Origin: Candidatus Omnitrophota bacterium
Lineage (GTDB): Bacteria > Omnitrophota > Gorgyraeia > Gygaellales > Profunditerraquicolaceae
DNA: 64,000 nt
Reading direction: 5' to 3'
Assembly: GCA_028712375.1 (NCBI GenBank)
Contig: JAQTQG010000001.1
Span: 110,126 to 174,125 of the forward strand
Positions 19,735-60,107 of the stretch are shown here, one piece after another. The position numbers were made by a program, and so were the translations under genes. The first letter of the stretch is position 1. Every line of letters begins with the position of its first letter. Below the pieces are notes generated by a model. It was not told the DNA's origin. It searched no databases and was given only the letters and a program-made list of their open reading frames with translations.

Positions 19735-19762
19735 CCGGTTTAAAAGGTATGGAAAGCTGAAT

Positions 19763-21051: not shown

Positions 21052-21828
21052 ATGAAGGTAGTGATTCTGGCAGGCGGCAGAGGCACAAGGATTAGTGAAG
21101 AAACAGAAGTTTTGCCCAAGCCCATGGTGGAGATCGGCGGCAAGCCGATGATCTGGCATATTATGAAGCTGTATTCTCATTATGGTTTTAATGATTTTAT
21201 CATCTGCCTGGGATACCGTGGGTACATGATTAAAGAGTATTTCTCCCATTATTTTATGCATATGAGCGATTTAACCATTGATTTATCTAAAAATAAAACC
21301 AGGATTCATACTACGGTTTCTGAGCCCTGGAAGATTACTTTGGTGGATACGGGTTTAGAAACAATGACTGGCAGCAGGCTTAAAAGGGTGAAGAAATATA
21401 TTGGTAAGCAGCCTTTTCTATTGACTTATGGCGATGGACTGGCGGATATTAATATGAAAAAACTAGTTGAATTCCATAAGAAAAATAAAAGGCTGGCTAC
21501 TTTAACTGCGATACAGAATCTCGGCCGGTTTGGGGTTTTAGATATTGTTTCTGGCAGTAAAGTTTCTTCTTTTCTGGAGAAACCCAAAGGTGAAGGAGGT
21601 TGGATCAACGGCGGTTTTTTTGTCCTTGAGCCGGAGATATTTAATTATATAGATAATGATGATACCGTGGTTTGGGAGAATGAACCTTTGGAAAATCTGG
21701 CAAAGCAAGGCAAGCTAAGCGCTTATAAGCATGCTGGTTTTTGGGGTTGTATGGATACCTTAAGAGATAAGATGAATTTTGAAAAAATCTGGCAATCCGG
21801 AAATGCTCCTTGGAAGGCTTGGAAGTGA
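21052..21828 (+). CDS. rfbF: Glucose-1-phosphate cytidylyltransferase
   Basis: 258 aa. MKVVILAGGRGTRISEET..PKPMVEIGGKPMIWHIM matches the RfbF/DdhA N-terminus almost residue for residue. GGGGAGG RBS upstream. Confidence 0.85.
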   Translation: MKVVILAGGRGTRISEETEVLPKPMVEIGGKPMIWHIMKLYSHYGFNDFIICLGYRGYMIKEYFSHYFMHMSDLTIDLSKNKTRIHTTVSEPWKITLVDTGLETMTGSRLKRVKKYIGKQPFLLTYGDGLADINMKKLVEFHKKNKRLATLTAIQNLGRFGVLDIVSGSKVSSFLEKPKGEGGWINGGFFVLEPEIFNYIDNDDTVVWENEPLENLAKQGKLSAYKHAGFWGCMDTLRDKMNFEKIWQSGNAPWKAWK

Positions 21829-21833
21829 CCGCT

Positions 21834-22817
21834 ATGAATAATAAATTCTGGAAAAATAAAGTCGTTCTGGTTACGGGTTTTGAAGGTTTCTTAGGTTCCA
21901 ATCTAACTAAGTCGATTATTTCTTCCGGGGCAAAAGTTATCGGTTTGGATATTAAAACTTTTCGTAAACAAACTATTTTTTGCGCTCAAGATTATGAAAA
22001 AATAATTGTTTATAAGGGTAGCGTTGATAACCGCAGTTTAATCAGGGATATTTTCCGTAAGCATCCAATTGACATAATTTTTCATTTAGCTGCGGAAGCG
22101 ATTGTCAGCCGGAGCTACCAAAATCCACTTAAAGCTTTTGAATCTAACATTACCGGAACCTGGGAAATTTTGGAGGCTGTCCGCAAATACGGGAAAGTGC
22201 AGGCGGTTGTCGTGGCTTCCAGTGATAAGGCTTACGGCAGCCATAAAAAACTTCCTTATCGTGAAGACGCTCCTTTGATCGCTAACCATCCTTATGATGT
22301 TTCTAAAAGCTGCGCGGATTTGATCGCTAATACTTATTTGCATACTTATGATTTACCGGTGGCTATCACCCGCTGCGGTAATATCTACGGGCCGGGTGAT
22401 TTTAATTTTAGCCGGCTTATACCTGATGCAATGAGAAACTTAGCTTTAAATAAACAACTAAAGATACGCAGTGATGGAAAATTTGTGCGCGATTATGTTT
22501 ATGTTGAGGATATCGTTGCCGGTTATCTGCAAATAGCTGAGTTGTTAGCCAGGCGCAAGATTCCCGGTGATGCCTTTAATTTAAGCGATGAGCAGCCATT
22601 GACCGTGATTGGATTATTAAAAGAGATAAACCTGGCTTTGCCTGGAGCTAAGAAGTTAAAATATAAAATTATGAATACCGCCCGCTATGAAATTAAAAAA
22701 CAGTATCTTTCTTCAACGAAAGCCCGCCGCATTCTAGGTTGGAAGCCCAACTATACTTTAAAGGAAGGGCTGCGTAAAACGGGTCAGTGGTACGTGCAAT
22801 ATTTTAAACAGATATGA
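21834..22817 (+). CDS. rfbG: CDP-glucose 4,6-dehydratase
   Basis: N-terminus from ATG 21834 (MNNKFWKNKVVLVTGFEGFLGS) parallels DdhB (FWQGKRVFVTGHTGFKGSWL). YDVSK catalytic motif. Directly downstream of rfbF. Confidence 0.65.
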   Translation: MNNKFWKNKVVLVTGFEGFLGSNLTKSIISSGAKVIGLDIKTFRKQTIFCAQDYEKIIVYKGSVDNRSLIRDIFRKHPIDIIFHLAAEAIVSRSYQNPLKAFESNITGTWEILEAVRKYGKVQAVVVASSDKAYGSHKKLPYREDAPLIANHPYDVSKSCADLIANTYLHTYDLPVAITRCGNIYGPGDFNFSRLIPDAMRNLALNKQLKIRSDGKFVRDYVYVEDIVAGYLQIAELLARRKIPGDAFNLSDEQPLTVIGLLKEINLALPGAKKLKYKIMNTARYEIKKQYLSSTKARRILGWKPNYTLKEGLRKTGQWYVQYFKQI

Positions 22818-23554
22818 AACTATATTTTTTAGGAACAAGCGGTTGGTATGATACGGCTTTAGGCAATACGCTTTCGGTTTTACTGGATACAAAACAGGCT
22901 TATATTGTTTTTGACGCTGGAGGGGGTTTTTATAAGCTGGATAGATATGTAAAAGAGGAAAAACCGGTGATTGTCTTGCTTAGCCATTTCCATTTGGACC
23001 ATATTAGCGGTTTACATGCTTTAGCGAAATTTAATTTTACTCAAGGCATAAAAATATTGGGCCCTCAAGGCATAAAGAAGCTATTTAACCTTTTAATTAA
23101 TGCCCCTTATTCTATGCCGGTTAATAAACTGAAGACTAAATTAGTGGTGGGGGAATTTTTGAATAGCTTAAAATTGCCGGTAGATATTAAATATAAGGAA
23201 CTTCGCCATGTTGATGCCTGTTATGGGTATCGGGTCTCGACGGATAATAAAACCGTAGTTTTTTGCACAGATACCGGTCCTTGCAGAAATTTAAATGCTT
23301 TGGCGCAAGGAGCGGATGTTTTAATTGCGGAATCATCTTTACCTGCCGGCAGGATAGATAACCGTTGGCCGCATCTTAACCCTGAGCAGGCGGCTGTAGC
23401 TGCTAAGCAGGCAGGGGTTAAGAAATTGATTTTGACGCATTTTGATTCCGGTGTTTATACTAAATTAAAGGATAGGGCACAAGCTGGTAGAAGCGCTAGA
23501 AAAGTATTTAAAAATACTTTGGTTAGCTATGATGGCTTGGAGCTGGCTATATAA
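22814..23554 (+). CDS. MBL-fold metallo-hydrolase (RNase Z/PhnP-like phosphodiesterase fold)
   Basis: 246 aa. HFHLDHISGL metal-binding motif. C-terminal LTHFD. Confidence 0.6.
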   Translation: MKLYFLGTSGWYDTALGNTLSVLLDTKQAYIVFDAGGGFYKLDRYVKEEKPVIVLLSHFHLDHISGLHALAKFNFTQGIKILGPQGIKKLFNLLINAPYSMPVNKLKTKLVVGEFLNSLKLPVDIKYKELRHVDACYGYRVSTDNKTVVFCTDTGPCRNLNALAQGADVLIAESSLPAGRIDNRWPHLNPEQAAVAAKQAGVKKLILTHFDSGVYTKLKDRAQAGRSARKVFKNTLVSYDGLELAI

Positions 23555-23555
23555 G

Positions 23556-24533
23556 ATGAATCTTACCGCGATTTTAAAAAATAAACGGTGTTTTAAGTTG
23601 GTTTGCGGTGCCGGCAATGAGGACGCTGTGGAAGTAGAGAAATTGGTGGCGGTTTATGCTAAAGCCGGCGCTAATTATTTTGATCTTTCAGCCAGAGAAG
23701 ATATTGTCCGCGCTGCTAAGCGGGGTTTGGAGAGGGTAATTCCGAAAGGTAAGCCAACTAACTATTTTTTTAATGTCAGCGTTGGAATCGCCGGTGATCC
23801 GCATGTGCGCAAGGCTTTAATTACCGGGCAAAAATGTAAAGCCTGCGGCCTTTGTCAAAAAGTCTGCCAGCAAAAAGCGATTTTACCCGAAGGAAATAAA
23901 TATGCCGTGATTAAAACACGCTGTATTGGTTGTGGAGCGTGTGCTGAAGTTTGCCCGGTAGCAGCAATTTCGTTTACCACAGAGAATAAAGATTTAAATT
24001 TAGTGTTGCCTCCGTTAGTTAAGCTGGGGCTGGATTCCTTGGAGTTGCACGCTGTAACGGATGATGAAGAAACTGCTTATGCTCAGTGGCTGGCGATGAA
24101 TAAGATCTTTCCCGGTATTTTAAGCCTTTGCCTTGACCGTTCTCATTTGGGAGATAAGCAATTGATCGCACGTATTAAGCGTTTTATCGGCAGCAGGAAT
24201 GATTTTACTACAATAATTCAAGCTGATGGCGCGCCGATGAGCGGAGGGGATGATCGCTGCAATACTACTTTGCAGGCTTTAGCTACTGCGGATATTGTAA
24301 ATAAAGCCAAACTGCCGGTTTGGTTGCTTATTTCCGGAGGTACAAATAGTAAGACTGCTAAGCTGTCCAGATTATTTGAAATTAATGCCCAAGGTGTGGC
24401 GATTGGTTCGTTTGCCCGTAAGATTATCAGGAAATATATTGACCGGAGTGATTTTCTGGAAAATAAAAAAGTATTTAATCAGGCCTGCAAGATCGCTAAA
24501 CAGCTGGTTGATAAATCTTTAAAGTATCTATGA
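23556..24533 (+). CDS. Uncharacterised protein with two 4Fe-4S ferredoxin-type cluster motifs inserted in a TIM-barrel-like scaffold
   Basis: Two CxxCxxCxxxCP motifs (CKACGLCQKVC and CIGCGACAEVCP). No recognisable flavin or NAD motif. Family not identified. Confidence 0.45.
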   Translation: MNLTAILKNKRCFKLVCGAGNEDAVEVEKLVAVYAKAGANYFDLSAREDIVRAAKRGLERVIPKGKPTNYFFNVSVGIAGDPHVRKALITGQKCKACGLCQKVCQQKAILPEGNKYAVIKTRCIGCGACAEVCPVAAISFTTENKDLNLVLPPLVKLGLDSLELHAVTDDEETAYAQWLAMNKIFPGILSLCLDRSHLGDKQLIARIKRFIGSRNDFTTIIQADGAPMSGGDDRCNTTLQALATADIVNKAKLPVWLLISGGTNSKTAKLSRLFEINAQGVAIGSFARKIIRKYIDRSDFLENKKVFNQACKIAKQLVDKSLKYL

Positions 24534-25285
24534 TCAGCTTGTCTTCACCTTCCTGGAAGATTGAATCAATTGAGGCTGTCCTTTTTGATAAGGACGGCAC
24601 ATTAATCGACAGCCATATATATTGGGGCAGGATCATTCAAAAAAGAAGCCGGGCGCTGATTAAGATGTTGAACCTTAAAGATGAAGTGCATCCTGTTCTT
24701 TGCCAGAAAATGGGGTTTTCCCTGGAAAGGAAGATTTTGTTGCCTGAGGGTCCGATCGCCCTGGTCAGCCGCGAAAAAGTAATTGCAATACTTCTGGATT
24801 TTTTAATCAAGCAGGGCGTAGCGGTTACTTTTGGCCAGATAGACAGCTTATTTATAGAAGTCCACTCTGATTTTTTAAATGAGATTAATAGCTATATAAA
24901 AATATTGCCGGGTGTCGAAGAGTTTCTGAAAAAAATCAAGGATAAAAAAATTAAGACAGCGGTAGTGACTACTGATAGCATTAAGAATACCCGGGAGATA
25001 GTGAAATTCCTGAATATCGACAAATATTTCGATGTGCTTTTAGGTAAAGAAGCAACGCCCTTACCTAAAATAAGTGGTGAGCCCGCGTTGATTGCGCTAA
25101 GGCAGTTAGACCTAGAGCCTGATTTGGCTATCGCCATTGGTGATTCTGCGATGGATATTACGATGGCTAAGCAAGCGCATTTAAAGGCGGCAGTTGGGGT
25201 GGCTTTAGGGCAGGTGCCTTTCGAAGCATTAAAAAAAGAAACTGCCTTTGTTGTTAAGGGGTATGATGAATTAAGCATAAATTAA
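24530..25285 (+). CDS. HAD-superfamily hydrolase (subfamily IA phosphatase-like)
   Basis: 251 aa. Motif I VLFDKDGTL and C-terminal IGDSAMDI motif. Confidence 0.65.
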   Translation: MISLSSPSWKIESIEAVLFDKDGTLIDSHIYWGRIIQKRSRALIKMLNLKDEVHPVLCQKMGFSLERKILLPEGPIALVSREKVIAILLDFLIKQGVAVTFGQIDSLFIEVHSDFLNEINSYIKILPGVEEFLKKIKDKKIKTAVVTTDSIKNTREIVKFLNIDKYFDVLLGKEATPLPKISGEPALIALRQLDLEPDLAIAIGDSAMDITMAKQAHLKAAVGVALGQVPFEALKKETAFVVKGYDELSIN

Positions 25286-25292
25286 TTTACAA

Positions 25293-27014
25293 ATGAAAAT
25301 TAAAATCATTGATTGCACAATCCGGGATGGCGGGCATTTAAACAAGTGGCAGTTTCAGGACCGCTTAGTAAGATCCGCTTATTTTGCGGCGCAAAAAGGC
25401 CGGGTGGATTATTTTGAGATTGGTTATAAAAATGATCCGGCTAAAAGCGGTTTGGGCGCTTATGGGTATTGTGATGAACAGCAGATAAGCGGGCTTTTTA
25501 AATGTTCTGCAGAATGTAAGCTGCTTTTTATGCTGGATGCAGGTAAATATACCGGATATGAAATTCCCGATTGCAAGGAAGGTAAAACCCCTTTTTCAGG
25601 AGTAAGAATTGCCGCTTACCCTTATGAGGCCGGTATTGCAATTGATTTGGTTGAGAAGATGCATAAAAAAGGCTATGAAGTTTTTCTTAACCTGATGGCC
25701 AGCAGTGAATGGACGGATAAAGATTTGGCAGTGTTAAAGAGTTGGAAGCATAAAGATGCGCTTAAGGCGGTTTATTTTGCGGATAGTTTCGGCGCATATG
25801 GCCCGGCTGAAATATCTGCGCTTATTAAAAAATTAAAAAAAATCGGGTTTAAGCATATCGGATTTCATGCTCATAATAATTTACAGATGGCATTTGCTAA
25901 TACGATGCATGCGATTAAAGAAGGGGCTACTTACGTGGATGCTTCTATTTATGGTATGGGCAGAGGCGCGGGAAATTTACCGGTTGAAATTCTTTTGAGC
26001 TATCTGAGTAAGCATAAAAATAATGAGTATAATGTTGTTCCTTATTTGGATGTGATCCAGAGGTTTTTTGTCCGGCTTTTCGAGCAATACCGCTGGGGGT
26101 ATTCGCTAAATTCCCTTTTAGGCGGGATAAGCAACGTGCATCCTTATTATATCGATGAACTTTTTCATTCACATAATTATACGATTGAGGAAATTTGGAA
26201 TATTTTAGAAGTGATTAAAGAAAAATGCCCGATTTCTTTCTCGGGGGAGAAGCTAAAGCGCGCGCTGGGGGAAAGGTTTTATATCCCGAATGTTACGCAA
26301 ACCCGCCGCACTATTGCGGAAATCGAGAAAGACCTGAAAATTATCCCGGCCAAAGATAGTTTTTTATTGCGTAGGCTTGCGTTTAAAAATAAACATAAGG
26401 GCAGAAGTTTTTTAATTATTGCCAATGGTCCTTCAATTGTCAAGTATAAGGATAAAATTAATGAGTTGATCAGTAAAAAGAATTTAATTACTATTGGCTG
26501 TAATTTTCTAAATGAAATTTATGTTCCAGATTACCATTTGTTTGTAAATAAAAGAAGGTTTCTTAAGTATGTTTCTTCTGTATTAAAAAAGAGCATATTG
26601 CTGGTGCCTACTTTTTTCGGGAAACGCCTGGTTACGGAAAATTATAGCGGAGATTATGAATTTATTCAGATTGCTGCGGAACATAATCTTAAGGCCTTGC
26701 CGGTAAAAGGAATCCGCCAGCAGGCTGCATATCTTAACGTGGCTACCGCTGCCATCCTGGCTGCTTTTCAGATGGGGGCGCGTGAAATTATGGCGGTGGG
26801 AATGGATGGATATCAAAGCCAGGAGGCCGGAAAAGTGGTTTATTTTTATAATGAAAAAGATGTCCCCGATGACAAAATTACTGCCTCTGTGCGTTATGAG
26901 AACATGGCAATTGAATTAAAAAGAGTGGCGGATTTTTTACATGAGCAGGGCATATCGTTTTCCATTATTACTCCTACATCTCATAAGAGATATTATCAGG
27001 ATATTTTAGTTTAA
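25293..27014 (+). CDS. Fusion protein: N-terminal DmpG-like class II (DRE-TIM) pyruvate aldolase plus C-terminal DUF115/Maf-like (MptE-like) domain
   Basis: 573 aa. N-terminal IIDCTIRDGGH and FHAHNNLQMAFANT..GMGRGAGN match the 4-hydroxy-2-oxovalerate aldolase (DmpG/MhpE) metal-binding signatures. C-terminal FLIIANGPS..ITIGCNF resembles the DUF115 domain of motility-associated-factor putative glycosyltransferases. Confidence 0.5.
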   Translation: MKIKIIDCTIRDGGHLNKWQFQDRLVRSAYFAAQKGRVDYFEIGYKNDPAKSGLGAYGYCDEQQISGLFKCSAECKLLFMLDAGKYTGYEIPDCKEGKTPFSGVRIAAYPYEAGIAIDLVEKMHKKGYEVFLNLMASSEWTDKDLAVLKSWKHKDALKAVYFADSFGAYGPAEISALIKKLKKIGFKHIGFHAHNNLQMAFANTMHAIKEGATYVDASIYGMGRGAGNLPVEILLSYLSKHKNNEYNVVPYLDVIQRFFVRLFEQYRWGYSLNSLLGGISNVHPYYIDELFHSHNYTIEEIWNILEVIKEKCPISFSGEKLKRALGERFYIPNVTQTRRTIAEIEKDLKIIPAKDSFLLRRLAFKNKHKGRSFLIIANGPSIVKYKDKINELISKKNLITIGCNFLNEIYVPDYHLFVNKRRFLKYVSSVLKKSILLVPTFFGKRLVTENYSGDYEFIQIAAEHNLKALPVKGIRQQAAYLNVATAAILAAFQMGAREIMAVGMDGYQSQEAGKVVYFYNEKDVPDDKITASVRYENMAIELKRVADFLHEQGISFSIITPTSHKRYYQDILV

Positions 27015-27032
27015 AATAAGGAGATTAAATAG

Positions 27033-27797
27033 ATGAAAAACATCAAACAAACTTTAAAAGAGCGCCTGCAGGCTGGAAAAAATGTTTTGGGGACCTGGTG
27101 TCTTTTGCCTTCTGAGGCGGTAGTGAATGTTATTGCTAAAGCCGGGCTTGATTTTGTGTTGATTGATTTAGAGCATGGGGCAATCAGCCCGGAATGTGCT
27201 TTACGGATGGTGATGGCAGCGCAGGCTGATGGGTCGGAAGCGGTAATCCGGGTTTCTTGCAATGATGAATCGGAAGTGGCTAAAGCGCTAGATATCGGAA
27301 GTAATGGAGTGATCGTACCGCATATTGAAACACCCCGGGAATGCAGAGATGCTTTGTCGTTTATTAAGTATCCTCCTTCAGGGGTACGGGGGTTTTCTCC
27401 TTATGTCAGGTCGGGCGGTTATGCCCAGACTAAAGGGTATGTTTCCAAAGAAAACCAGCGTATTCTTTCAGGTATCATTATCGAAGGCTTAGAAGGTATT
27501 GTCAATATTGATTCAATTATTGCCGATACCCGCCTGGATTTAGTTTATATCGGGGCTTATGATATCTCGGTAGCATTGGGTGTGCCCGGAGAAATTAGTA
27601 ATCCGAAGGTAGTAAAAATTATTAAGGAATGTGTAAAAAAGATTCGGGCCCATAAAAAAGCTGCCGGGGCTCTGTTTCATTCAGAGCAGGAGTTAAGGTT
27701 ATTTAAGTCTATCGGCATACAGTTTTTATGTTATCGGGTTGATTCAGATATTCTTTACAGTGCATTCAATACCATCGTAAATAATTTTGGGAGATAA
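27033..27797 (+). CDS. HpcH/HpaI family class II pyruvate-dependent aldolase
   Basis: 254 aa. Colinear with 2-keto-3-deoxy-acid aldolases (VLIDLEHG, GVIVPHIET, GVRGFSP). AAGGAG RBS. Confidence 0.75.
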   Translation: MKNIKQTLKERLQAGKNVLGTWCLLPSEAVVNVIAKAGLDFVLIDLEHGAISPECALRMVMAAQADGSEAVIRVSCNDESEVAKALDIGSNGVIVPHIETPRECRDALSFIKYPPSGVRGFSPYVRSGGYAQTKGYVSKENQRILSGIIIEGLEGIVNIDSIIADTRLDLVYIGAYDISVALGVPGEISNPKVVKIIKECVKKIRAHKKAAGALFHSEQELRLFKSIGIQFLCYRVDSDILYSAFNTIVNNFGR

Positions 27798-27805
27798 GTT
27801 ATAAG

Positions 27806-29611
27806 ATGATTAGACTTTCGGAGTATGTGATTAAATTTCTGGCTAAAGAAAAGATTAAGCATGTTTTTATGGTTTCCGGAGGCGGCGGGATGTTTTTAAT
27901 CGATTCTTTAGGCCGTAGCAAGGATATTCAGTATGTTTGTAATCACCATGAGCAGGCTTGCGCGATGAGCGCAGAAGGTTATCAGCGGGTTACCGGTAAT
28001 CTGGGCGCGGCTTTAGTTACTACCGGCCCGGCAGGGACTAATGTGATTACGGGGTTAATGTGTTCATGGAACGATTCTATTCCGGTAATTATTATTTCCG
28101 GGCAGGTAGCTTCAAGATTTTTAATTGGAAATACAGGTTTGCGCCAAAGGGGTACGCACGAGGCTAATATTACTAAGATTGTTGAATCCATAACAAAATA
28201 TGCGGTTACGGTAACTGATGCCGGCATGATTCGCTATCATTTGGAAAAAGCGCTATATTTGGCGCGCCATGGCCGGCCAGGACCGGTATGGCTGGATATA
28301 CCTCTGGATATTCAGGCGGCAATGATTAATGAAGATACGCTAGCGCATTTTTCTGCGGAAAAAGAAAATTTTATTGGTGCCTCTGAAACTGATGAAACAA
28401 AAATTAAAGAAATCTGCGGGCTTTTGTCAGCATCTAAACGCCCGGTGATTATTGCGGGAAACGGAATCCGGATTGCCGGCATGCAGGAAGAGTTTATCCG
28501 CTTTATTGAAACTTATCGTATTCCCGTAGTGACTACTAAGCTGGGTTTTGACCTTATTTATGATGAGCATGAACTTTTGGCCGGCAGGATAGGAACCTAT
28601 GGCCAGCGGGCCGGAAATTTTGCGGTGCAAAACGCGGATTTTGTTTTAGTACTCGGTTCGCGCCTGGCGTTTACCACTATTGGCTATCAAACAGAATGGT
28701 TTGCCCGCGGGGCAAAAAAGGTAGTTGTGGATATTGATCAGCAACAGCTGAAATATCCGAATATAAAAATTGATATATCTGTCCGGGCCAATCTTAAAGA
28801 TTTTTTTCCTATCTTGAACAAAGCGCTTAAAGCTAAAGCTCTATCTGTCGGCGATTGGATTAGCTGCTGCCAAAATTGGCGTAAGAAATACCCGGCGGTA
28901 TTACCGCAATGGCGCAAAGAAAAAAAATATGTTAATCCTTATTATTTTTTTGAAGCGCTTTCTGAAAAGCTGGGCCATGACGATATAGTAATTACGGATC
29001 AAGGGGCTACTTTTTACTGCTCAACTCCGGCATTTAAATTAAAAAAAGGCCAACGCCTGTTTACTAACGGGGGTTTTTCCCCGATGGGGTTTGGGCTTCC
29101 CGCGGCAATCGGGGCATGTTTTGCTAATAATAAAAAACGGGTTATTTGTGTGCATGGTGATGGTGGGCTGGAATTAAATATTCAGGAGTTGCAGACAATT
29201 GTGCATTATAAATTACCGGTCAAGCTTTTTGTATTTAATAATCAGGGGTATTTGAGTATAAAACATACGCAAAACGCCTACTTTAATGGTTTTTTTGTGG
29301 GTTCTGACCCATCAAGCGGAGTAAGTTGCCCGGATACGGTTAAAATTGCCCGGGCTTACGGCATAGCTTCTTTAAGTATTAAAAATCATAAACAAATGCA
29401 TGTTCAGATTAGAAAAGCATTAAAGGCTAAAGGAGCGATGATTATCGATGTAACATTGCATCCGATGCAGCCATTTGCTCCCCGGGTTATTTCGGAGCGT
29501 AAATCAAGCGGGGTAATGGTATCTAAGCCCCTAGAAGATATGTACCCTTTTTTAAACCGGAAAGAGTTTTTATCCAATATGATTGTTGCTCCTGTTGAGG
29601 ATAAAAATTAA
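27806..29611 (+). CDS. Thiamine diphosphate-dependent enzyme of the acetolactate synthase large-subunit family (YerE-like candidate branched-chain sugar synthase)
   Basis: 601 aa. TPP N-terminal Pyr domain (HEQACAMSAEGY), central domain, and C-terminal PP domain with the GDGG motif (VHGDGGLELNIQEL). Confidence 0.75.
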   Translation: MIRLSEYVIKFLAKEKIKHVFMVSGGGGMFLIDSLGRSKDIQYVCNHHEQACAMSAEGYQRVTGNLGAALVTTGPAGTNVITGLMCSWNDSIPVIIISGQVASRFLIGNTGLRQRGTHEANITKIVESITKYAVTVTDAGMIRYHLEKALYLARHGRPGPVWLDIPLDIQAAMINEDTLAHFSAEKENFIGASETDETKIKEICGLLSASKRPVIIAGNGIRIAGMQEEFIRFIETYRIPVVTTKLGFDLIYDEHELLAGRIGTYGQRAGNFAVQNADFVLVLGSRLAFTTIGYQTEWFARGAKKVVVDIDQQQLKYPNIKIDISVRANLKDFFPILNKALKAKALSVGDWISCCQNWRKKYPAVLPQWRKEKKYVNPYYFFEALSEKLGHDDIVITDQGATFYCSTPAFKLKKGQRLFTNGGFSPMGFGLPAAIGACFANNKKRVICVHGDGGLELNIQELQTIVHYKLPVKLFVFNNQGYLSIKHTQNAYFNGFFVGSDPSSGVSCPDTVKIARAYGIASLSIKNHKQMHVQIRKALKAKGAMIIDVTLHPMQPFAPRVISERKSSGVMVSKPLEDMYPFLNRKEFLSNMIVAPVEDKN

Positions 29612-29653
29612 ATATTTCGCATTCTTTTTTGGTAATTAAAATTAAGAGGAATC

Positions 29654-30703
29654 ATGCATTTAATTGTTAAGGAAGACTTAGAATTCATAACCGCAACTGG
29701 TATCCATTGGGATAAGCTGGAAGGCAGGAATATCCTGGTTACCGGAGCCAATGGCTTTTTGCCCGCATATATGATTGAAACAATTTTGTTTTTAAATGAA
29801 CATCGATTTAAAAAGAAAGCTAAAATTTTTGCTTTGGCACGCAATAAGGAGAGGGTCCAAAAGAGGTTTTCCGGTTACCGCGGAAATAAAAATATTGTTT
29901 TTATTATTCAAGATGTTTGCGCTCCGCTTAAAATTCATAAAAAAATGGATTTTATTATTCATGCTGCCAGCCAGGCTAGCCCAAAGTTTTATGGTTCGGA
30001 TCCGGCAGGGACTATTTCGGCTAATACGCTTGGCACAGCAAATCTTTTAGCTTTAGCCGCTAAACATAAAAGCCAGGGGTTTCTGTTCTTTAGCAGTGGC
30101 GAAGTATACGGGGAGGTAGCTGTTGACCAGGTTCCTATTAGAGAAGATACTTATGGCTTAGTGGATCCAATGCTTTTGCGTTCTTGTTATGCAGAAGGTA
30201 AGCGTGCCGGTGAAAATATGTGTGTTTCTTGGAGCCATCAATATGGAATACCGGTAAAAATCATCCGCCCTTTTCATACCTATGGGCCGGGAATGCGGCT
30301 GGATGATGGAAGGGTGTTTGCGGATTTTGTCTGCGATGTTGTGGCAGGCAGGGATATTATAATGAAAAGCGACGGCAGCGCAGTGAGGGCCTTTTGTTAT
30401 CTGGCTGACGCAGTTGCCGGGTTTTTTACGGTACTTTTGGAAGGCAGTTCTGCGCAAGCTTATAATGTTGGAAATGATGAGGGGATTAGCATAGCCGGCC
30501 TGGCTAAGATATTGGTTGATTTGCGCCCGGAAAAACATTTAAAGGTTATTCAGAGGGAAAGTGATTGCATCGGCGGGTATATAAAAAGCCGGATACCGGT
30601 GAGCGTGCCGGATACCACTAAGATCAGGCGGTTAGGTTGGAAACCGTTTTATTCCATAAAAGAAGGGTTTGGGCGTACGGTAAGGAGCTTTGAAAGTGAG
30701 TAA
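29654..30703 (+). CDS. NAD(P)-dependent epimerase/dehydratase family reductase (YerF-like candidate)
   Basis: 349 aa. VTGANGFL Rossmann motif. YAEGK catalytic motif. Confidence 0.6.
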   Translation: MHLIVKEDLEFITATGIHWDKLEGRNILVTGANGFLPAYMIETILFLNEHRFKKKAKIFALARNKERVQKRFSGYRGNKNIVFIIQDVCAPLKIHKKMDFIIHAASQASPKFYGSDPAGTISANTLGTANLLALAAKHKSQGFLFFSSGEVYGEVAVDQVPIREDTYGLVDPMLLRSCYAEGKRAGENMCVSWSHQYGIPVKIIRPFHTYGPGMRLDDGRVFADFVCDVVAGRDIIMKSDGSAVRAFCYLADAVAGFFTVLLEGSSAQAYNVGNDEGISIAGLAKILVDLRPEKHLKVIQRESDCIGGYIKSRIPVSVPDTTKIRRLGWKPFYSIKEGFGRTVRSFESE

Positions 30704-31619
30704 GTTAGTAGAAATTGAAAAACAATATAAAACCGGCTGCGTTGGCAAAGAAACCTACATAAACTTAATGCATAAACGCCACCTTATGCTTGAGGATTAT
30801 CCGAAGTTGATTAAGAATAAAAATGTTGCTGCCATTGAAATTAGCCAAGGTAAGATTATCTTAAAGACAAAAGATGGTGTTAGCTTATTCTGTGATTTTT
30901 TAGATAAACGGCATATATCTATGGAGATTTTAAATTTTGGTAATTATGAATCTGCCGAACTACAAATGATTAAGCGTTTTTTAAAAAAAGACAGCGTGAT
31001 ATTGGATATTGGCGCAAATATCGGATGGTATTCGATTAATCTTTCCAGAAGTGTTCCGCGGGGCAGGATAATTGCTTTTGAACCAATTCCTAAAACCTAC
31101 AATTGCTTAATTAAGAATGTTGCTTTGAACCAGTTGCCTAATATCAAGGCATATAATATCGGATTATTCAATAAATCAGGCCGCTTTAATTTTTATTATA
31201 ACCGTTCCTACACCGGAGCGACATCTTTGAAGGACATTATTCATAAGCACGATACGGTCTTAATTAAATGCCGGGTGGAAAAATTAGATGATTTTTTGAA
31301 AAAAATAAAGATTGGGCAGGTAGATTTTATTAAATGTGATGCGGAGGGTGCTGAAAAATTTGTTATTGAAGGCGGGTTAAACTTAATTAAAAAGTATAAA
31401 CCGGTTATTTTTGTGGAATTATTAAGAAAGTGGGCGGCTAAATTTGACTATCATCCGAATAGCGTAATTAGCCTTCTTAAACAGATAGGGTACGAATGCT
31501 ACGTAATTAATAAGGCAAAACTTAAGAAAATTAGAGAAATCACGGAAACTACGCAGCAAACTAATTTTTATTTTTTACCTGTTTCTAAGTATTCTAAATT
31601 ATTAAGCAGGTTAACCTGA
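30696..31619 (+). CDS. FkbM-family methyltransferase
   Basis: LDIGANIGWYS motif of the FkbM family. The track start is TTG at 30690. GTG at 30696 is better spaced from the TAAGGAG RBS. Confidence 0.6.
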   Translation: MSKLVEIEKQYKTGCVGKETYINLMHKRHLMLEDYPKLIKNKNVAAIEISQGKIILKTKDGVSLFCDFLDKRHISMEILNFGNYESAELQMIKRFLKKDSVILDIGANIGWYSINLSRSVPRGRIIAFEPIPKTYNCLIKNVALNQLPNIKAYNIGLFNKSGRFNFYYNRSYTGATSLKDIIHKHDTVLIKCRVEKLDDFLKKIKIGQVDFIKCDAEGAEKFVIEGGLNLIKKYKPVIFVELLRKWAAKFDYHPNSVISLLKQIGYECYVINKAKLKKIREITETTQQTNFYFLPVSKYSKLLSRLT

Positions 31620-32932
31620 TGGCTATGGCGAAAACACTAAGAAAAAAAATCCAGGCAGATGTAAAACGTTTATGCAGATTATCTTTTGCAAAAGCAAAGT
31701 TTGTTCCCGGCCAGACACCGGTTAGTTATGCCGGCAGGGTTTATGATGAAAAAGAAATGTTTAATTTAGTTGATGCTTCCCTGGATTTTTGGTTAACTGC
31801 CGGCAGATACGCTGCAGAGTTTGAAAAAAGGCTCGCAGAGTTCATTAAAGTAAAATATTGCCTTTTAACTAATTCCGGTTCTTCGGCGAATTTGCTGGCG
31901 ATTTCCGCCTTAACTTCACCCTTGTTAAAAGAACGGCAACTGAAAAAAGGCGATGAAGTTATTACAACTGCTTGCGGTTTTCCCACTACGCTCAATCCTA
32001 TTCTACAAAATAATCTTGTGCCTGTATTTATCGATGTGGAGCTGGGGACATATAACATACGGGCGGAGTTGGTTGAGCGGGCGATTACTAAAAAGACCAA
32101 AGCCATATTTGTCCCGCACACTTTAGGCAATCCGGCAAACATTGCATTGATTCTAAAAATAGCTAAAAAATATAATCTTTGGTTTATAGAAGATAATTGC
32201 GATGCTTTGGGGTCAATTTATAAAGGCAGGCTTACCGGTTCATTCGGCGATATCGCTACTTGCAGTTTTTATCCTGCGCACCACATTACGATGGGTGAAG
32301 GAGGGGCAGTCTTAACCAGTAACCCGCTCTTAAAAAGAATAATTATGTCTTTTCGCGACTGGGGAAGGGATTGTTATTGCGGCCCCGGCCTGGATAATAC
32401 CTGTCGGAAAAGATTTTCTCAAAAATTCGGTAATCTTCCGCAGGGTTATGATCATAAATATGTTTATTCGCATATTGGTTATAATTTAAAAGTAACGGAT
32501 ATGCAGGCGGCAGTAGGAGTGGCACAGTTGGATAAGTTAGGAGGTTTTATTAAGTCCAGGAGGGAGAATTTTTCATTTCTCAAAAAATCCCTTAAAGGTT
32601 ATCAAAAGTATTTGGTTTTACCGGAGCCTTCAGAAGAATCAATGCCCAGCTGGTTTGGTTTTCCTATTTTAGTTAAGGAAAACGCCCCTTTTACCAGGAA
32701 TGGTCTGGTAACTTATCTGGAGCAGCGTAAAATTGCTACGCGTATGCTTTTTGGAGGGAATTTAACCAAGCAGCCGGCATATGAAGATACCAGATACAGG
32801 ATTTTCGGATCGTTGCAGCATACTGATATGGTGATGAACAATCTTTTCTGGATTGGAGTCTACCCCGGGCTTAAGCTTGAACAGTTAACCTATATGAAAA
32901 ATACAATTATTGGCTTCCTAGAAAAAATATGA
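31619..32932 (+). CDS. rfbH: CDP-6-deoxy-D-xylo-4-hexulose-3-dehydrase (E1; RfbH/DdhC family)
   Basis: 437 aa, DegT fold. The PLP lysine position reads YPAHHITMGEGG (His instead of Lys), as in E1. It also has DCYCGPGLDNTC, a CxCx7C iron-sulfur motif characteristic of E1. Confidence 0.8.
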   Translation: MAMAKTLRKKIQADVKRLCRLSFAKAKFVPGQTPVSYAGRVYDEKEMFNLVDASLDFWLTAGRYAAEFEKRLAEFIKVKYCLLTNSGSSANLLAISALTSPLLKERQLKKGDEVITTACGFPTTLNPILQNNLVPVFIDVELGTYNIRAELVERAITKKTKAIFVPHTLGNPANIALILKIAKKYNLWFIEDNCDALGSIYKGRLTGSFGDIATCSFYPAHHITMGEGGAVLTSNPLLKRIIMSFRDWGRDCYCGPGLDNTCRKRFSQKFGNLPQGYDHKYVYSHIGYNLKVTDMQAAVGVAQLDKLGGFIKSRRENFSFLKKSLKGYQKYLVLPEPSEESMPSWFGFPILVKENAPFTRNGLVTYLEQRKIATRMLFGGNLTKQPAYEDTRYRIFGSLQHTDMVMNNLFWIGVYPGLKLEQLTYMKNTIIGFLEKI

Positions 32933-33627
32933 AACTTACAATTCTGATATTTTGTTTTAATGAAAAATCCACTATTTCCAGCGTTATTGAAGATGCTAAG
33001 CAAATTACCCTGGATAAAGAAATAATTGTTATCGATAATTTCTCTACTGACGGCACCAGGGAAATATTAAAAACTTATAGTGAAGATAAAGCATTAAAAA
33101 TAATATTGCATGATAAAAACATGGGAGCCGGCTATTCTGTGCGCGAAGGGATTGCTCTTGCCCAAGGTGATTATTTGTATGCGCCGGGAGCGGACCTGGA
33201 ATATAAGATGGATGATGTATATAAGATGGTGGAGAAGCTGGAAAAAGAAAAGCTGGATGTAGTTTTTGGGTCAAGGTTATCCGGCCGAAAAGAAGTTTCC
33301 ACTATTGAGCTGATCAAGGAAAGGCCTTACTGGCTGGGAACAATTATCGCTACGTTTTTAATAAACCTCTTTTATGGCAGGAAGTTCACGGATATAATCG
33401 CCACTAAATTGATCAAGGCTGACATTTTAAAAAACCTGGGCTGCCAAGCGAGTGATCCGTCTTTTGAATTTGAGTTGGTCAGCCGGTTATGTAAAAAGAA
33501 ATATAAAATCGGCGAACTGCCTGTTTGGTATAAGGCGCGTTCTCATAGAGAAGGCAAAACTATTAAAGCCATTCATATGCTTCCGGCGTTGTGGGCGATA
33601 TTCAGGATTAAGTTTCTGGTTAGATAA
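32929..33627 (+). CDS. Glycosyltransferase family 2
   Basis: 232 aa. LTILIFCFNE..IIVIDNFSTDGT N-terminal GT2 signature. Confidence 0.65.
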   Translation: MKLTILIFCFNEKSTISSVIEDAKQITLDKEIIVIDNFSTDGTREILKTYSEDKALKIILHDKNMGAGYSVREGIALAQGDYLYAPGADLEYKMDDVYKMVEKLEKEKLDVVFGSRLSGRKEVSTIELIKERPYWLGTIIATFLINLFYGRKFTDIIATKLIKADILKNLGCQASDPSFEFELVSRLCKKKYKIGELPVWYKARSHREGKTIKAIHMLPALWAIFRIKFLVR

Positions 33628-34635: not shown

Positions 34636-34691
34636 TTTATGCATGAAAATCTTCATGTATAAAGTTTATATCTGGACCAAAGGAGCTTATT

Positions 34692-35396: not shown

Positions 35397-35400
35397 TCCG

Positions 35401-59286: not shown

Positions 59287-59323
59287 GCGCGAACCTAGTT
59301 TTAATAGATAAAAGGAAAACCAA

Positions 59324-60106: not shown

Positions 60107-60107
60107 G

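What the first reader, a model, noticed from the sequence alone, without database searches (positions are those of the whole stretch)
21052..32932. Split CDP-3,6-dideoxyhexose pathway with a YerE/YerF-like branch: candidate yersiniose-type branched-chain sugar
rfbF (21052) and the CDP-glucose 4,6-dehydratase (21834) sit about 9 kb upstream of a clear E1/DdhC (31619; His replacing the PLP Lys, CxCx7C Fe-S motif). Immediately before E1 are an ALS-like TPP enzyme (27806), an SDR reductase (29654) and an FkbM methyltransferase. In Yersinia, ddhABC plus the TPP enzyme YerE and the reductase YerF make CDP-yersiniose, a 4-C-branched 3,6-dideoxyhexose. This gene content would allow a similar, possibly O-methylated, branched dideoxy sugar. 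Branched-chain sugars of this type are rarely reported.
Basis: partly seen in the sequence, partly recalled or inferred. Interest (0 to 1): 0.65.

Follow-up and report, generated by a model that had tools for sequence, protein, structure and literature searches.

The report
Gene cassette for a long-branched dideoxy sugar
This is a single 11-gene operon that most likely builds a CDP-activated 3,6-dideoxy sugar with a carbon side chain at C-4. The side chain is probably longer than the two carbons of yersiniose, and the same cassette recurs in many uncultivated phyla and next to the flagellin gene of Clostridium botulinum.

Summary
21052 is a glucose-1-phosphate cytidylyltransferase and 21834 a 4,6-dehydratase. 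31619 is a true E1/DdhC, with His221 in place of the PLP lysine and an intact C-X57-C-X-C-X7-C motif. 27806 is a ThDP enzyme that is not an acetolactate synthase. Its best solved relative is JanthE, a YerE-like carboligase.

The interpretation needs two corrections.

1. The pathway is not split. The five intervening genes belong to a conserved cassette: MBL hydrolase, LdpA-like Fe-S TIM barrel, HAD phosphatase, DmpG-type aldolase fused to an MptE/Maf-like domain, and HpcH aldolase. The LdpA/HAD/aldolase/ThDP core recurs in 15 loci: Magasanikbacteria, Melainabacteria, Elusimicrobia, a Geobacter-named metagenome contig, and the C. botulinum flagellin island. One relative fuses the HpcH aldolase to the ThDP enzyme.
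2. Aldolases beside a YerE-like enzyme are the published signature of longer acyl branches (erwiniose, caryophyllose). There a 4-hydroxy-2-oxoacid, not pyruvate, is the donor.

No E3/DdhD reductase gene lies in the window or in any of the 84 related loci scanned.

The general scheme is known. This donor module and its product are not described in any paper I could search. Verdict: a new variant of a known kind.

The parts
21052..21828 (+). ddhA/rfbF, glucose-1-phosphate cytidylyltransferase (makes CDP-glucose)
   Evidence: TIGR02623 scores 415.5 bits against a cut-off of 300. Homologues at 41-64% identity lie beside the ThDP gene in 55 of 80 genome loci.
21834..22817 (+). NDP-glucose 4,6-dehydratase, inferred to act on CDP-glucose; not a canonical DdhB
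   Evidence: TIGR02622 scores 218.5 bits, below the 278 cut-off. PDB best hit is the dTDP-glucose dehydratase 6bi4 at 172 bits; the CDP-glucose dehydratases 1wvg and 1rkx score 135 and 126. It carries GxxGxxG, an SSDK dyad and YDVSK. An alternative TTG start lies at 21810.
22814..23554 (+). MBL-fold metallo-hydrolase, role unknown
   Evidence: Lactamase_B_2 scores 72.5 bits and the HFHLDH motif is intact. Its start overlaps the dehydratase stop by 4 bp. Homologues at 42-45% identity sit between ddhB and the ThDP gene in L032, L052, L053, L070, L076 and L081.
23556..24533 (+). LdpA-family Fe-S protein: a TIM barrel with an inserted 2x[4Fe-4S] ferredoxin domain. Part of the donor-supply module; role unknown.
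   Evidence: Pfam LdpA_C, Fer4 and DUF561. NF045992 LdpA scores 140 bits over the full length, below its cut-off. The start at 23556 follows the NCBI gene call (P0241). Eight ferredoxin cysteines plus C12, C17, C192 and an SGGTNS loop are invariant in 30 homologues. The AF2 model has pLDDT 88.6. Foldseek gives only generic TIM-barrel and sugar-phosphate aldolase matches at TM about 0.45. It co-occurs with the aldolase-MptE gene, not with E1.
24530..25285 (+). HAD-IA phosphatase
   Evidence: Pfam Hydrolase scores 95 bits and HAD_2 85 bits. The DKDGT motif is intact. HAD genes recur in the cassette in 9 of 12 subclade loci. They also occur in distant versions: C. concisus L037, L008 and L085.
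25293..27014 (+). Fusion protein. N-terminal half is a DmpG/BphI-type class II pyruvate aldolase (HMGL-like). C-terminal half is an MptE/Maf-like (DUF115) Rossmann domain.
   Evidence: HMGL-like scores 78.5 bits; MptE-like scores 29.9 bits, below its gathering score. 4-hydroxy-2-oxovalerate aldolase models score 125 and 109 bits, below their cut-offs. PDB: 3dxi scores 179 bits and DmpG-type aldolases about 75. Foldseek to 3dxi gives TMt 0.87. RDGGH and HAH metal/catalytic motifs are invariant. AF2 pLDDT is 85.6. A profile of the C-domain finds nothing in the PDB. It was found at >=40% identity in 11 of the 80 genome loci, always beside a relative of the ThDP gene by construction. In two independent look-ups, started from the fusion protein itself, a ThDP gene lay beside it; in a third the contig ended one gene after it.
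27033..27797 (+). HpcH/HpaI-family class II pyruvate aldolase
   Evidence: HpcH_HpaI scores 92.9 bits. HpaI, GarL and related models score about 153 bits, below their cut-offs. PDB: HpcH/HpaI 123 bits, YfaU 107. The DLEH, R73, E152 and D177 motifs are present. It is fused to the ThDP enzyme in P0115, at loci L003 and L004.
27806..29611 (+). YerE-like (JanthE-like) ThDP-dependent carboligase: the inferred branching enzyme
   Evidence: TPP_enzyme_N, M and C domains are present. TIGR00118 acetolactate synthase scores 372.8 bits, below the 538 cut-off. PDB: JanthE 8rph 456 bits, PpYerE 5ahk 273, E. coli AHAS I 251. Identities are 38%, 32% and 27%. The GDG-X24-NN motif is intact. The alignment to JanthE runs to residue 594, while those to PpYerE and AHAS stop near 560.
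29654..30703 (+). Extended SDR for nucleotide sugars; inferred YerF-like side-chain ketoreductase
   Evidence: Epimerase scores 140 bits. PDB best hit is UDP-glucuronate decarboxylase at 158 bits. GxxGxxP, SSGE and YAEGK motifs are present. Homologues at 46-76% identity follow the ThDP gene in L005, L007-L010, L012, L013, L016 and L025. L013 has no ddh genes nearby.
30690..31619 (+). FkbM-family SAM methyltransferase; inferred O-methylation of the sugar or its side chain
   Evidence: Methyltransf_21 scores 75.7 bits and RfbT-like 32 bits. Homologues at 41-70% identity occur in L005, L007, L008 and L025. There are two FkbM genes in L085.
31619..32932 (+). E1/DdhC/RfbH, CDP-6-deoxy-L-threo-D-glycero-4-hexulose-3-dehydrase
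   Evidence: NF011936 scores 713.9 bits against a cut-off of 423. PDB 3bcx scores 559 bits at 56% identity. His221 and C194-X57-C252-X-C254-X7-C262 are present.
32929..33627 (+). Small GT2 glycosyltransferase, a candidate transferase for the product (weak assignment)
   Evidence: Glycos_transf_2 scores 97.7 bits. Its start overlaps the E1 stop by 4 bp. GT2 homologues at 28-42% identity occur in several related loci.

Best explanation
The genes from 21052 to 32932 (perhaps to 33627) form one operon for a CDP-activated, 4-C-acyl-branched 3,6-dideoxyhexose.

**Acceptor arm.**
- DdhA makes CDP-glucose.
- The 4,6-dehydratase gives CDP-4-keto-6-deoxyglucose.
- E1 removes the 3-OH to give CDP-4-keto-3,6-dideoxyglucose. 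Its electrons come from a reductase not encoded here.

**Donor arm.**
- The DmpG-type aldolase-MptE fusion and the HpcH aldolase condense pyruvate with an aldehyde. The product is a hydroxylated 4-hydroxy-2-oxoacid.
- The LdpA-like Fe-S TIM barrel, the HAD phosphatase and possibly the MBL hydrolase help in some way. They may work through phosphorylated intermediates.

**Joining and finishing.**
- The JanthE/YerE-like ThDP enzyme decarboxylates the oxoacid. It then adds the acyl anion equivalent to the C-4 ketone, creating a tertiary alcohol.
- The SDR reduces the side-chain ketone, as YerF does.
- The FkbM enzyme O-methylates.
- A glycosyltransferase puts the sugar into the surface polysaccharide encoded by the surrounding 46 kb locus.

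**Shown:** gene identities, intact catalytic motifs, conserved synteny and the gene fusion.
**Inferred:** every reaction, the identity of the donor, and the length of the branch.
For: **Acceptor genes.** ddhA and E1 pass curated equivalog cut-offs, and E1 keeps His221 and the Fe-S motif.

**ThDP enzyme.**
- It fails the acetolactate synthase cut-off. It is closest to the two solved YerE-like enzymes.
- JanthE couples C3-C6 2-oxoacids, including 4-hydroxy-2-oxovalerate, to acceptors that include ketones (PMC12188165).
- Relatives at 45-79% identity sit with ddhA and/or E1 in 42 of 48 well-flanked genome loci.

**Conserved cassette.**
- The LdpA/(HAD)/aldolase-MptE/(HpcH)/ThDP core recurs in 15 loci (13 keep HAD, 11 keep HpcH). 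These are C. botulinum L001/L002, L003/L004, Magasanikbacteria L009, Aquicultor L010, Melainabacteria/Gastranaerophilales L011, L012, L014, L016 and L017, Elusimicrobia L013 and L015, L086 (contig ends before any ThDP gene), and the Geobacter-named L087.
- L005, L007, L008 and L085 keep the aldolase-MptE/ThDP pair without LdpA.
- HpcH is fused to the ThDP enzyme in P0115.

**Integrity.** All catalytic motifs of both aldolases, HAD and MBL are intact. Genes overlap or are separated by at most 42 bp.

**Published precedent** (PMC9306805; PMC12247030).
- A BphI-like aldolase (ErwI) or an HpcH-family aldolase (MMAR_2331) beside a YerE-like enzyme supplies a 4-hydroxy-2-oxoacid donor for erwiniose and caryophyllose.
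- ErwE rejects pyruvate.
- The R. palustris cluster also carries a SAM methyltransferase.

**Variable donor modules.** Other versions of the cluster swap in different modules built on aldolases. C. concisus L037 has HAD plus an HpcH-like gene. L053 has two HpcH-like genes, an adh_short SDR and a DHQS-like gene.
Against: - No E3/DdhD/AscD-type reductase is encoded in the window or in any of 84 related loci. The C-3 deoxygenation therefore depends on an unidentified electron donor.
- The dehydratase is below the CDP-glucose 4,6-dehydratase cut-off. By raw score it is nearer to dTDP-glucose dehydratases.
- JanthE is only 38% identical to the window enzyme, and its physiological substrates are unknown.
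- PpYerE scores only slightly better than AHAS (273 against 251 bits).
- Three subclade loci (L011, L013, L014) have the donor module and the ThDP gene but no ddhA or E1 within 10 kb. The acceptor need not always be the dideoxy sugar.
- The roles of LdpA, HAD, MBL and the MptE-like domain are guesses.
- No sugar chemistry exists for any organism carrying this cassette.
Confidence: 0.68

Rival explanations
1. Yersiniose-type pathway. The ThDP enzyme uses pyruvate directly and installs a C2 acetyl branch, which the SDR reduces to 1-hydroxyethyl. The aldolases, LdpA, HAD and MBL would serve another purpose.
For: The ddhA, dehydratase, E1, ThDP enzyme and SDR match the ddhABC + YerE + YerF logic. 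JanthE also accepts pyruvate, though poorly.
Against: Two intact pyruvate aldolases are translationally coupled directly upstream of the ThDP gene and conserved in synteny. One is fused to the ThDP enzyme in P0115. In characterised clusters an adjacent aldolase marks donors longer than pyruvate, and ErwE rejects pyruvate. In the review's table JanthE gives 20-26% conversion with C4-C5 donors against 7% with pyruvate.
Confidence: 0.12
2. There are two independent products. ddhA, the dehydratase, E1 and an SDR make an ordinary unbranched 3,6-dideoxyhexose of the paratose or abequose type. The LdpA/HAD/aldolase/ThDP module makes a separate oxoacid-derived or acyloin substituent, or acts on a different keto sugar.
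For: L011, L013, L014 and L085 carry the donor module with the ThDP gene but no ddhA or E1 within 9-10 kb. A recent survey annotated Clostridium flagellin-island ddh genes simply as 3,6-dideoxyhexose or paratose genes (PMC13317340).
Against: 42 of 48 well-flanked loci join the ThDP gene to ddhA or E1. The SDR tracks the ThDP gene even where E1 is absent, as in L013. It gave no match to paratose or abequose synthase models or to CDP-tyvelose epimerase. In the window and in L009 the module is nested between ddhA/B and E1 in one operon.
Confidence: 0.12
3. The ThDP enzyme is a biosynthetic acetolactate synthase that happens to lie in a polysaccharide locus.
For: The best NCBIfam model by name is acetolactate synthase large subunit, at 372.8 bits. 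Public annotations call its homologues acetolactate synthase.
Against: It scores 165 bits below the TIGR00118 cut-off, and far below every AHAS equivalog cut-off. It is 27% identical to E. coli AHAS I against 38% to JanthE. No small regulatory subunit or ilv gene lies nearby. Linkage to ddh genes is almost universal.
Confidence: 0.02

Closest known systems
Erwiniose cluster of Pectobacterium atrosepticum (ErwE ThDP enzyme, ErwF reductase, ErwI BphI-like aldolase, ErwJ acetaldehyde dehydrogenase; PMC9306805)
   Same: A YerE-like ThDP enzyme lies next to a DmpG/BphI-type pyruvate aldolase, a reductase and genes for CDP-4-keto-3,6-dideoxyglucose. The donor there is an aldolase-made 4-hydroxy-2-oxoacid.
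   Different: There is no ErwJ-type acylating aldehyde dehydrogenase here. The aldolase is fused to an MptE/Maf-like domain. A second (HpcH) aldolase, an LdpA-like Fe-S protein, a HAD phosphatase, an MBL hydrolase and an FkbM methyltransferase are added. I could not retrieve the ErwE sequence to measure identity.
Caryophyllose cluster of Mycobacterium marinum (MMAR_2331 aldolase, MMAR_2332 ThDP enzyme, MMAR_2333 glycosyltransferase), with the related R. palustris CGA009 cluster
   Same: An HpcH/citrate-lyase-family aldolase is adjacent to the ThDP enzyme. The R. palustris version also has a SAM methyltransferase and yields a methylated C6-branched sugar.
   Different: The organism and envelope differ. 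Here there are two aldolase types plus the LdpA/HAD module. The product is unknown.
Yersiniose A pathway of Yersinia pseudotuberculosis (DdhA-D, YerE, YerF)
   Same: The acceptor chemistry is the same. E1 is 56% identical, with the same His and Fe-S motif. The logic of a ThDP carboligase followed by a reductase is the same.
   Different: Yersiniose uses pyruvate directly and needs no aldolase. Yersinia encodes the E3 reductase DdhD, which is absent here. The window enzyme is only 32% identical to the solved YerE homologue PpYerE.
JanthE of Janthinobacterium sp. HH01 (PDB 8rph, 8rpi, 8rpj)
   Same: It is the closest solved and characterised relative (456 bits, 38% identity). The alignment covers the C-terminal ~35 residues that do not align to PpYerE or AHAS.
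   Different: JanthE has a CDG ThDP motif, where the window enzyme has the canonical GDG. Its physiological substrates are unknown.

Membership tests
CDP-3,6-dideoxyhexose pathway (DdhA/B/C/D = RfbF/G/H/I) | Glucose-1-phosphate cytidylyltransferase (DdhA) | tested here: met
   TIGR02623 equivalog scores 415.5 bits against a cut-off of 300.
CDP-3,6-dideoxyhexose pathway (DdhA/B/C/D = RfbF/G/H/I) | CDP-glucose 4,6-dehydratase (DdhB) | tested here: inconclusive
   TIGR02622 is the best model, but 218.5 bits is below the 278 cut-off. PDB dTDP-glucose dehydratases score higher than the CDP enzymes. The SSDK dyad resembles the Asp-Lys pair that I recall from CDP-glucose dehydratases (from memory, not tested). 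CDP specificity is inferred from coupling to ddhA.
CDP-3,6-dideoxyhexose pathway (DdhA/B/C/D = RfbF/G/H/I) | E1/DdhC: PMP enzyme with His in place of the PLP lysine, and the C-X57-C-X1-C-X7-C [2Fe-2S] motif | tested here: met
   NF011936 scores 713.9 bits against a cut-off of 423. His221 and C194/C252/C254/C262 are present. It is 56% identical to 3bcx.
CDP-3,6-dideoxyhexose pathway (DdhA/B/C/D = RfbF/G/H/I) | E3/DdhD/AscD: NADH-dependent [2Fe-2S] flavoprotein reductase for E1 | tested here: not met
   No ORF with a plant-type ferredoxin motif or FNR motifs occurs in the 64 kb window or in 84 related loci. Pfam scans of all 56 window ORFs of at least 150 aa show no such protein. It could lie elsewhere on the 182 kb contig.
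YerE-like ThDP-dependent carboligases | ThDP-binding GDG-X(24-27)-NN motif and the three-domain decarboxylase-superfamily architecture | tested here: met
   GDGGLE...FNN begins at residue 451. TPP_enzyme_N, M and C domains are present.
YerE-like ThDP-dependent carboligases | Closer to characterised YerE-like enzymes than to acetohydroxyacid synthases | tested here: met
   JanthE scores 456 bits, PpYerE 273 and the best AHAS 251. Identities are 38%, 32% and 27%. The enzyme fails TIGR00118. The margin over AHAS is small for PpYerE.
YerE-like ThDP-dependent carboligases | Encoded with genes for a nucleotide-activated 4-keto deoxysugar acceptor | tested here: met
   42 of 48 well-flanked loci have ddhA or E1 within 10 kb, and 34 have both.
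YerE-like ThDP-dependent carboligases | Catalyses addition of a 2-oxoacid-derived acyl anion to a ketone, forming a tertiary alcohol | not testable with these tools
   This needs an enzyme assay.
Yersiniose-type (C2, pyruvate-derived) branch specifically | Pyruvate is the direct donor, so no dedicated donor-forming aldolase is needed | tested here: inconclusive
   Two intact aldolases are adjacent, and an HpcH::ThDP fusion exists in a relative. This argues against a C2 branch, but donor preference was not measured.
Longer acyl-branched sugar scheme (erwiniose/caryophyllose/gastriose; Steitz et al. 2022) | A pyruvate aldolase gene in the same cluster as the ThDP enzyme | tested here: met
   A DmpG/BphI-type aldolase lies at 25293 and an HpcH-type aldolase at 27033. 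Both have conserved active-site motifs.
Longer acyl-branched sugar scheme (erwiniose/caryophyllose/gastriose; Steitz et al. 2022) | An NAD(P)H-dependent reductase (YerF/ErwF/MygF type) next to the ThDP enzyme | tested here: inconclusive
   An extended SDR lies directly downstream and is co-conserved with the ThDP gene. Homology to YerF or ErwF could not be tested because those sequences are not held.
Longer acyl-branched sugar scheme (erwiniose/caryophyllose/gastriose; Steitz et al. 2022) | A dedicated aldehyde supplier such as the ErwJ acylating acetaldehyde dehydrogenase | tested here: not met
   No aldehyde dehydrogenase lies in the cassette. An LdpA-like Fe-S protein, HAD and MBL occupy that place, and their function is unknown.
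Biosynthetic acetolactate synthase (IlvB/G/I) | Passes the equivalog model and is accompanied by a small regulatory subunit or ilv genes | tested here: not met
   TIGR00118 scores 372.8 bits against a cut-off of 538.35, and all NF00xxxx AHAS models are far below their cut-offs. The neighbours are sugar genes.

The most novel reading that the evidence does not exclude
The LdpA-like Fe-S TIM barrel, the HAD phosphatase and the aldolase-MptE/Maf fusion form an undescribed route to a functionalised 2-oxoacid. That route may run through phosphorylated intermediates or involve Fe-S-dependent reductive or dehydrating chemistry. The cassette would then make a structurally new long-branched dideoxy sugar. 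This sugar would decorate surface glycans across Omnitrophota, CPR bacteria, Melainabacteria and Elusimicrobia, and the flagellin of Clostridium botulinum. It would also give the first enzymatic role for the LdpA family, known so far only as a cyanobacterial circadian redox sensor.
Probability: 0.35. Interest if true: 0.72.

Novelty: new variant of a known kind. Interest (0 to 1): 0.55.

Why it matters
- **Rarity of the chemistry.** Only a handful of 4-C-acyl-branched sugars are chemically known: yersiniose, erwiniose, caryophyllose, gastriose, aurantose and the R. palustris sugar. They sit in immunodominant surface glycans.
- **A widespread unknown.** This cassette shows that one particular, uncharacterised version is spread over many phyla that have never been cultivated. 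It also reaches the flagellin glycosylation island of a toxigenic Clostridium, where it can be tested. Recent Clostridium surveys annotated the ddh genes there as making a plain 3,6-dideoxyhexose and did not note the branching enzyme.
- **Biocatalysis.** The ThDP enzyme belongs to a class sought for making chiral tertiary alcohols, and its natural donor is unknown.
- **Open biochemical questions.** These include E1 enzymes that consistently lack an E3 partner, and an LdpA-family protein in a biosynthetic operon.

Tried and rejected
1. **LdpA-like protein as a substitute for the missing E3.**
   - I considered this because it combines a TIM barrel with 2x[4Fe-4S].
   - I ranked it low. E1 occurs without LdpA in most of the more distant loci (43 have E1, one has LdpA). 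LdpA occurs without E1 in L011, L013 and L014. It tracks the aldolase-MptE gene instead.
2. **E3 motif searches.** Searches for a plant-type 2Fe-2S motif with FNR motifs in the window and 84 loci found nothing.
3. **Structure libraries.**
   - Foldseek on the aldolase-MptE model reported only the N-domain.
   - A profile of the C-domain alone found no PDB sequence. The MptE/Maf assignment therefore rests on a sub-threshold Pfam hit and the ANGPS loop.
   - Foldseek on the LdpA model gave only generic TIM-barrel hits.
4. **Papers I could not read.** The JanthE discovery paper and the 2024 survey of more than 200 YerE-like clusters are not held. The supplements of Steitz 2022 are not held either. 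I could not check whether this cassette is already listed, or compare sequences with YpYerE, ErwE/F or MMAR_2332.
5. **Literature searches.** Searches on C. botulinum flagellin islands, aurantose and LdpA/DUF561 found no description of this module.
6. **RNA scans.** tRNA and Rfam scans of the window found nothing.
7. **Acetolactate synthase reading.** Rejected.

Full report
**1. What is in the sequence.**

The window is a long run of genes on the + strand. Composition is uniform (GC 0.37-0.44) and GC skew is positive throughout. Positions 1-45.9 kb form one polysaccharide locus. It holds many glycosyltransferases, two Wzy_C genes, sugar-modifying SDRs and aminotransferases, ManC and heptosyltransferases. 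Housekeeping genes follow. The ThDP protein is 100% identical to an NCBI entry from a Candidatus Omnitrophica MAG on a 182 kb contig.

The genes named in the finding are all there:
- **21052-21828:** glucose-1-phosphate cytidylyltransferase, above its equivalog cut-off (TIGR02623, 415.5 bits against 300).
- **21834-22817:** a 4,6-dehydratase-type SDR.
  - Its best model is CDP-glucose 4,6-dehydratase, but below cut-off (218.5 bits against 278).
  - By raw PDB score it is nearer to dTDP-glucose dehydratases.
  - It has an SSDK dyad and YxxxK.
- **31619-32932:** an unambiguous E1.
  - NF011936 scores 713.9 bits against a cut-off of 423.
  - It is 56% identical to the Yersinia pseudotuberculosis E1 structure.
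  - His221 stands in place of the PLP lysine, and C194-X57-C252-X-C254-X7-C262 is present.
- **27806, 29654 and 30690:** a three-domain ThDP enzyme, an extended SDR and an FkbM methyltransferase.

**2. The ThDP enzyme is YerE-like, not an acetolactate synthase.**

It scores 372.8 bits on the biosynthetic acetolactate synthase equivalog, whose cut-off is 538, and it fails every other AHAS model.

Among solved structures:

| Structure | Bits | Identity |
|---|---|---|
| JanthE (8rph) | 456 | 38% |
| PpYerE (5ahk) | 273 | 32% |
| E. coli AHAS I (6lpi) | 251 | 27% |

- JanthE is described as a YerE-like enzyme. It couples C3-C6 2-oxoacids, including 4-hydroxy-2-oxovalerate, to acceptors that include ketones. 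Its physiological substrates are unknown (PMC12188165).
- The alignment to JanthE runs to residue 594, whereas those to PpYerE and AHAS stop near 560.
- The sequence margin between PpYerE and AHAS is small, so genomic context carries most of the weight.

**3. Context test.**

A scan of one genome per species confirmed 554 stretches that encode relatives. I kept the best 80, at 44-79% identity. They come from Planctomycetota, Verrucomicrobiota, Melainabacteria, Elusimicrobia, Campylobacter concisus, Sulfuricurvum, Nitrosospira, Sulfuriferula, Nitrospirota, Chlorobium, many CPR lineages and two archaeal MAGs.

tblastn of the window proteins against these loci gave the following:
- ddhA is present in 55 loci and E1 in 49.
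- Among the 48 loci with at least 6 kb on both sides, 42 have ddhA or E1 and 34 have both.

This ThDP clade is therefore tied to the CDP-3,6-dideoxyhexose genes, as expected for a branching enzyme acting on CDP-4-keto-3,6-dideoxyglucose.

**4. The pathway is not split.**

The five genes between the dehydratase and the ThDP gene overlap or lie within 18 bp of each other. They are:
- **22814:** an MBL hydrolase.
- **23556:** an LdpA-family Fe-S protein.
- **24530:** a HAD phosphatase.
- **25293:** a 573-residue fusion of a DmpG/BphI-type pyruvate aldolase with an MptE/Maf-like domain.
- **27033:** an HpcH/HpaI pyruvate aldolase.

The closest relatives of the ThDP enzyme (52-79% identity) carry the same set:
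- Among the 12 such genome loci, 10 have the aldolase-MptE gene, 8 LdpA, 9 HpcH, 9 HAD and 8 the SDR. Among the 68 more distant loci the counts are 1, 1, 2, 1 and 1.
- In Magasanikbacteria L009 the order is ddhA, ddhB, LdpA, HAD, aldolase-MptE, HpcH, ThDP, SDR, E1. This matches the window.
- Two Clostridium botulinum assemblies carry ddhA, SDR, LdpA, aldolase-MptE, HpcH, ThDP, SDR and E1. The cassette ends about 1.6 kb upstream of a flagellin gene, and flagellar basal-body genes follow.
- In a metagenomic relative the HpcH aldolase is fused to the N-terminus of the ThDP enzyme (P0115, 742 aa).
- Three look-ups that started from the aldolase-MptE protein gave the same picture. Two found a ThDP gene beside it. 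In the third the contig ended one gene after it.

Catalytic motifs are intact in both aldolases, HAD and MBL.

**5. What this implies.**

Steitz et al. (PMC9306805) showed that longer 4-C-branched sugars follow one scheme:
- A pyruvate aldolase in the cluster makes a 4-hydroxy-2-oxoacid. The aldolase is BphI-like ErwI for erwiniose and HpcH-family MMAR_2331 for caryophyllose.
- A YerE-like enzyme ligates that acid to CDP-4-keto-3,6-dideoxyglucose.
- A reductase finishes the side chain.
- ErwE does not accept pyruvate.
- The R. palustris cluster adds a SAM methyltransferase.

The window has both aldolase types, the ThDP enzyme, an SDR that tracks the ThDP gene even where E1 is absent (L013), and an FkbM methyltransferase. 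The best reading is therefore a sugar with a branch longer than C2, hydroxylated and possibly O-methylated, rather than yersiniose.

More distant versions keep the ddh genes and the ThDP enzyme but exchange the donor module:
- C. concisus has HAD, a divergent HpcH and an SDR.
- An Omnitrophota relative, L053, has two HpcH-like genes, an adh_short SDR and a DHQS-like gene.

The window's dehydratase and E1 are most similar to those of L053 and L076 (59% and 68-70%). Its ThDP enzyme, however, belongs to the other subclade. This indicates shuffling of modules.

**6. Unresolved parts.**

*(a) E3 is missing.*
- No ferredoxin-FNR-type ORF occurs in the window or in any of the 84 loci scanned.
- E1 keeps its Fe-S ligands, so it needs an electron donor.
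- From memory, the E1 homologue SpnQ works with general ferredoxin or flavodoxin reductases, so this gap need not be fatal.

*(b) The LdpA-like protein.*
- It is homologous over its full length to the cyanobacterial clock protein LdpA (140 bits, below cut-off).
- In 30 homologues, C12, C17, C192 and an SGGTNS loop are invariant, in addition to the eight ferredoxin cysteines.
- The AF2 model (pLDDT 88.6) is a TIM barrel with an inserted ferredoxin domain. It has no close solved relative; the best TM-score is about 0.45, to sugar-phosphate aldolases and TIM.
- Its distribution follows the aldolase-MptE gene, not E1. I therefore place it in donor supply rather than as an E3 replacement.

*(c) The C-terminal domain of the fusion protein.*
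- It is Rossmann-like with an ANGPS loop.
- It matches MptE-like only below threshold and has no sequence relative in the PDB.
- It could bind ATP or the CDP-sugar.

*(d) HAD phosphatases* recur in several versions of the cluster. This hints at phosphorylated intermediates.

None of these assignments is shown.

**7. Novelty.**

The kind of system is known. A 2024 study that I could not read reportedly lists more than 200 YerE-like clusters. I found no description of this donor module. A 2026 survey of Clostridium flagellin islands predicts only a 3,6-dideoxyhexose and does not mention a ThDP enzyme.

I rate it a new variant of a known kind. It is of moderate to good interest because the product is unknown, the cassette is widespread, and it is testable in cultivable Clostridium and Campylobacter strains.

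Noticed in passing
window 23556-24533; homologues P0241-P0360: A full-length homologue of the cyanobacterial circadian redox sensor LdpA sits inside a sugar-biosynthesis operon. Besides the two 4Fe-4S motifs it has three further invariant cysteines (C12, C17, C192) and a phosphate-loop-like SGGTNS motif. This hints that the LdpA family has an enzymatic origin.
   Followed up: partly
L001 4707-16689 and L002 (Clostridium botulinum assemblies): The same cassette (ddhA, SDR, LdpA, aldolase-MptE, HpcH, ThDP, SDR, E1) ends about 1.6 kb upstream of a flagellin gene and flagellar basal-body genes. It therefore lies in the flagellin glycosylation island, which implies a branched dideoxy sugar on flagellin.
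   Followed up: partly
L003 8090-10318 and L004 3938-6166 (protein P0115): A natural fusion joins an HpcH/HpaI aldolase domain to the N-terminus of the ThDP enzyme (742 aa). In the same loci the LdpA homologue is called as a shorter 209-aa gene with a small ORF upstream of it.
   Followed up: partly
window 21834-22817 and 31619-32932, compared with L053 and L076: The window's dehydratase and E1 are most similar (59% and 68-70%) to those of clusters whose ThDP enzyme is only 47-48% identical. In L053, the one checked, the donor module is also different. The acceptor and donor modules seem to recombine independently.
   Followed up: partly
window, whole 64 kb, and loci L001-L084: E1 genes with intact Fe-S ligands are never accompanied by an E3/AscD-type reductase gene in this clade of clusters.
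   Followed up: yes
window 19706-21025 and 36217-37452: Two separate Wzy_C (O-antigen ligase/polymerase-type) membrane proteins flank the cassette within one locus.
   Followed up: no
window 13177-15333: A 718-residue protein combines a zinc-type alcohol dehydrogenase domain with a GFO/IDH/MocA oxidoreductase domain inside the polysaccharide locus.
   Followed up: no
window 33652-36189: A radical SAM/SPASM protein, a class I methyltransferase and a polysaccharide deacetylase lie just downstream of E1 and the GT2 gene. The radical SAM and methyltransferase found only a few weak tblastn matches (23-27% identity) in the related loci. The deacetylase was not queried. Their link to the cassette is unclear.
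   Followed up: partly
window 48761-50787: Two tandem paralogues of a GalT/HIT-like (DUF4921) nucleotidyltransferase lie next to a GAPDH-PGK-TPI glycolytic operon.
   Followed up: no
window 58135-61310: An acyl-CoA dehydrogenase is followed by EtfB and by an EtfA carrying an N-terminal 2x[4Fe-4S] ferredoxin domain. This arrangement is typical of electron-bifurcating Bcd/Etf-type systems.
   Followed up: no
L085 6499-18754: A Bacteroidota-like version of the module has aldolase-MptE, two adh_short SDRs, ThDP, two FkbM genes, an SDR, HAD and GT2. It lies next to a YfhO-type GT-C glycosyltransferase and has no ddh genes within 9 kb.
   Followed up: no
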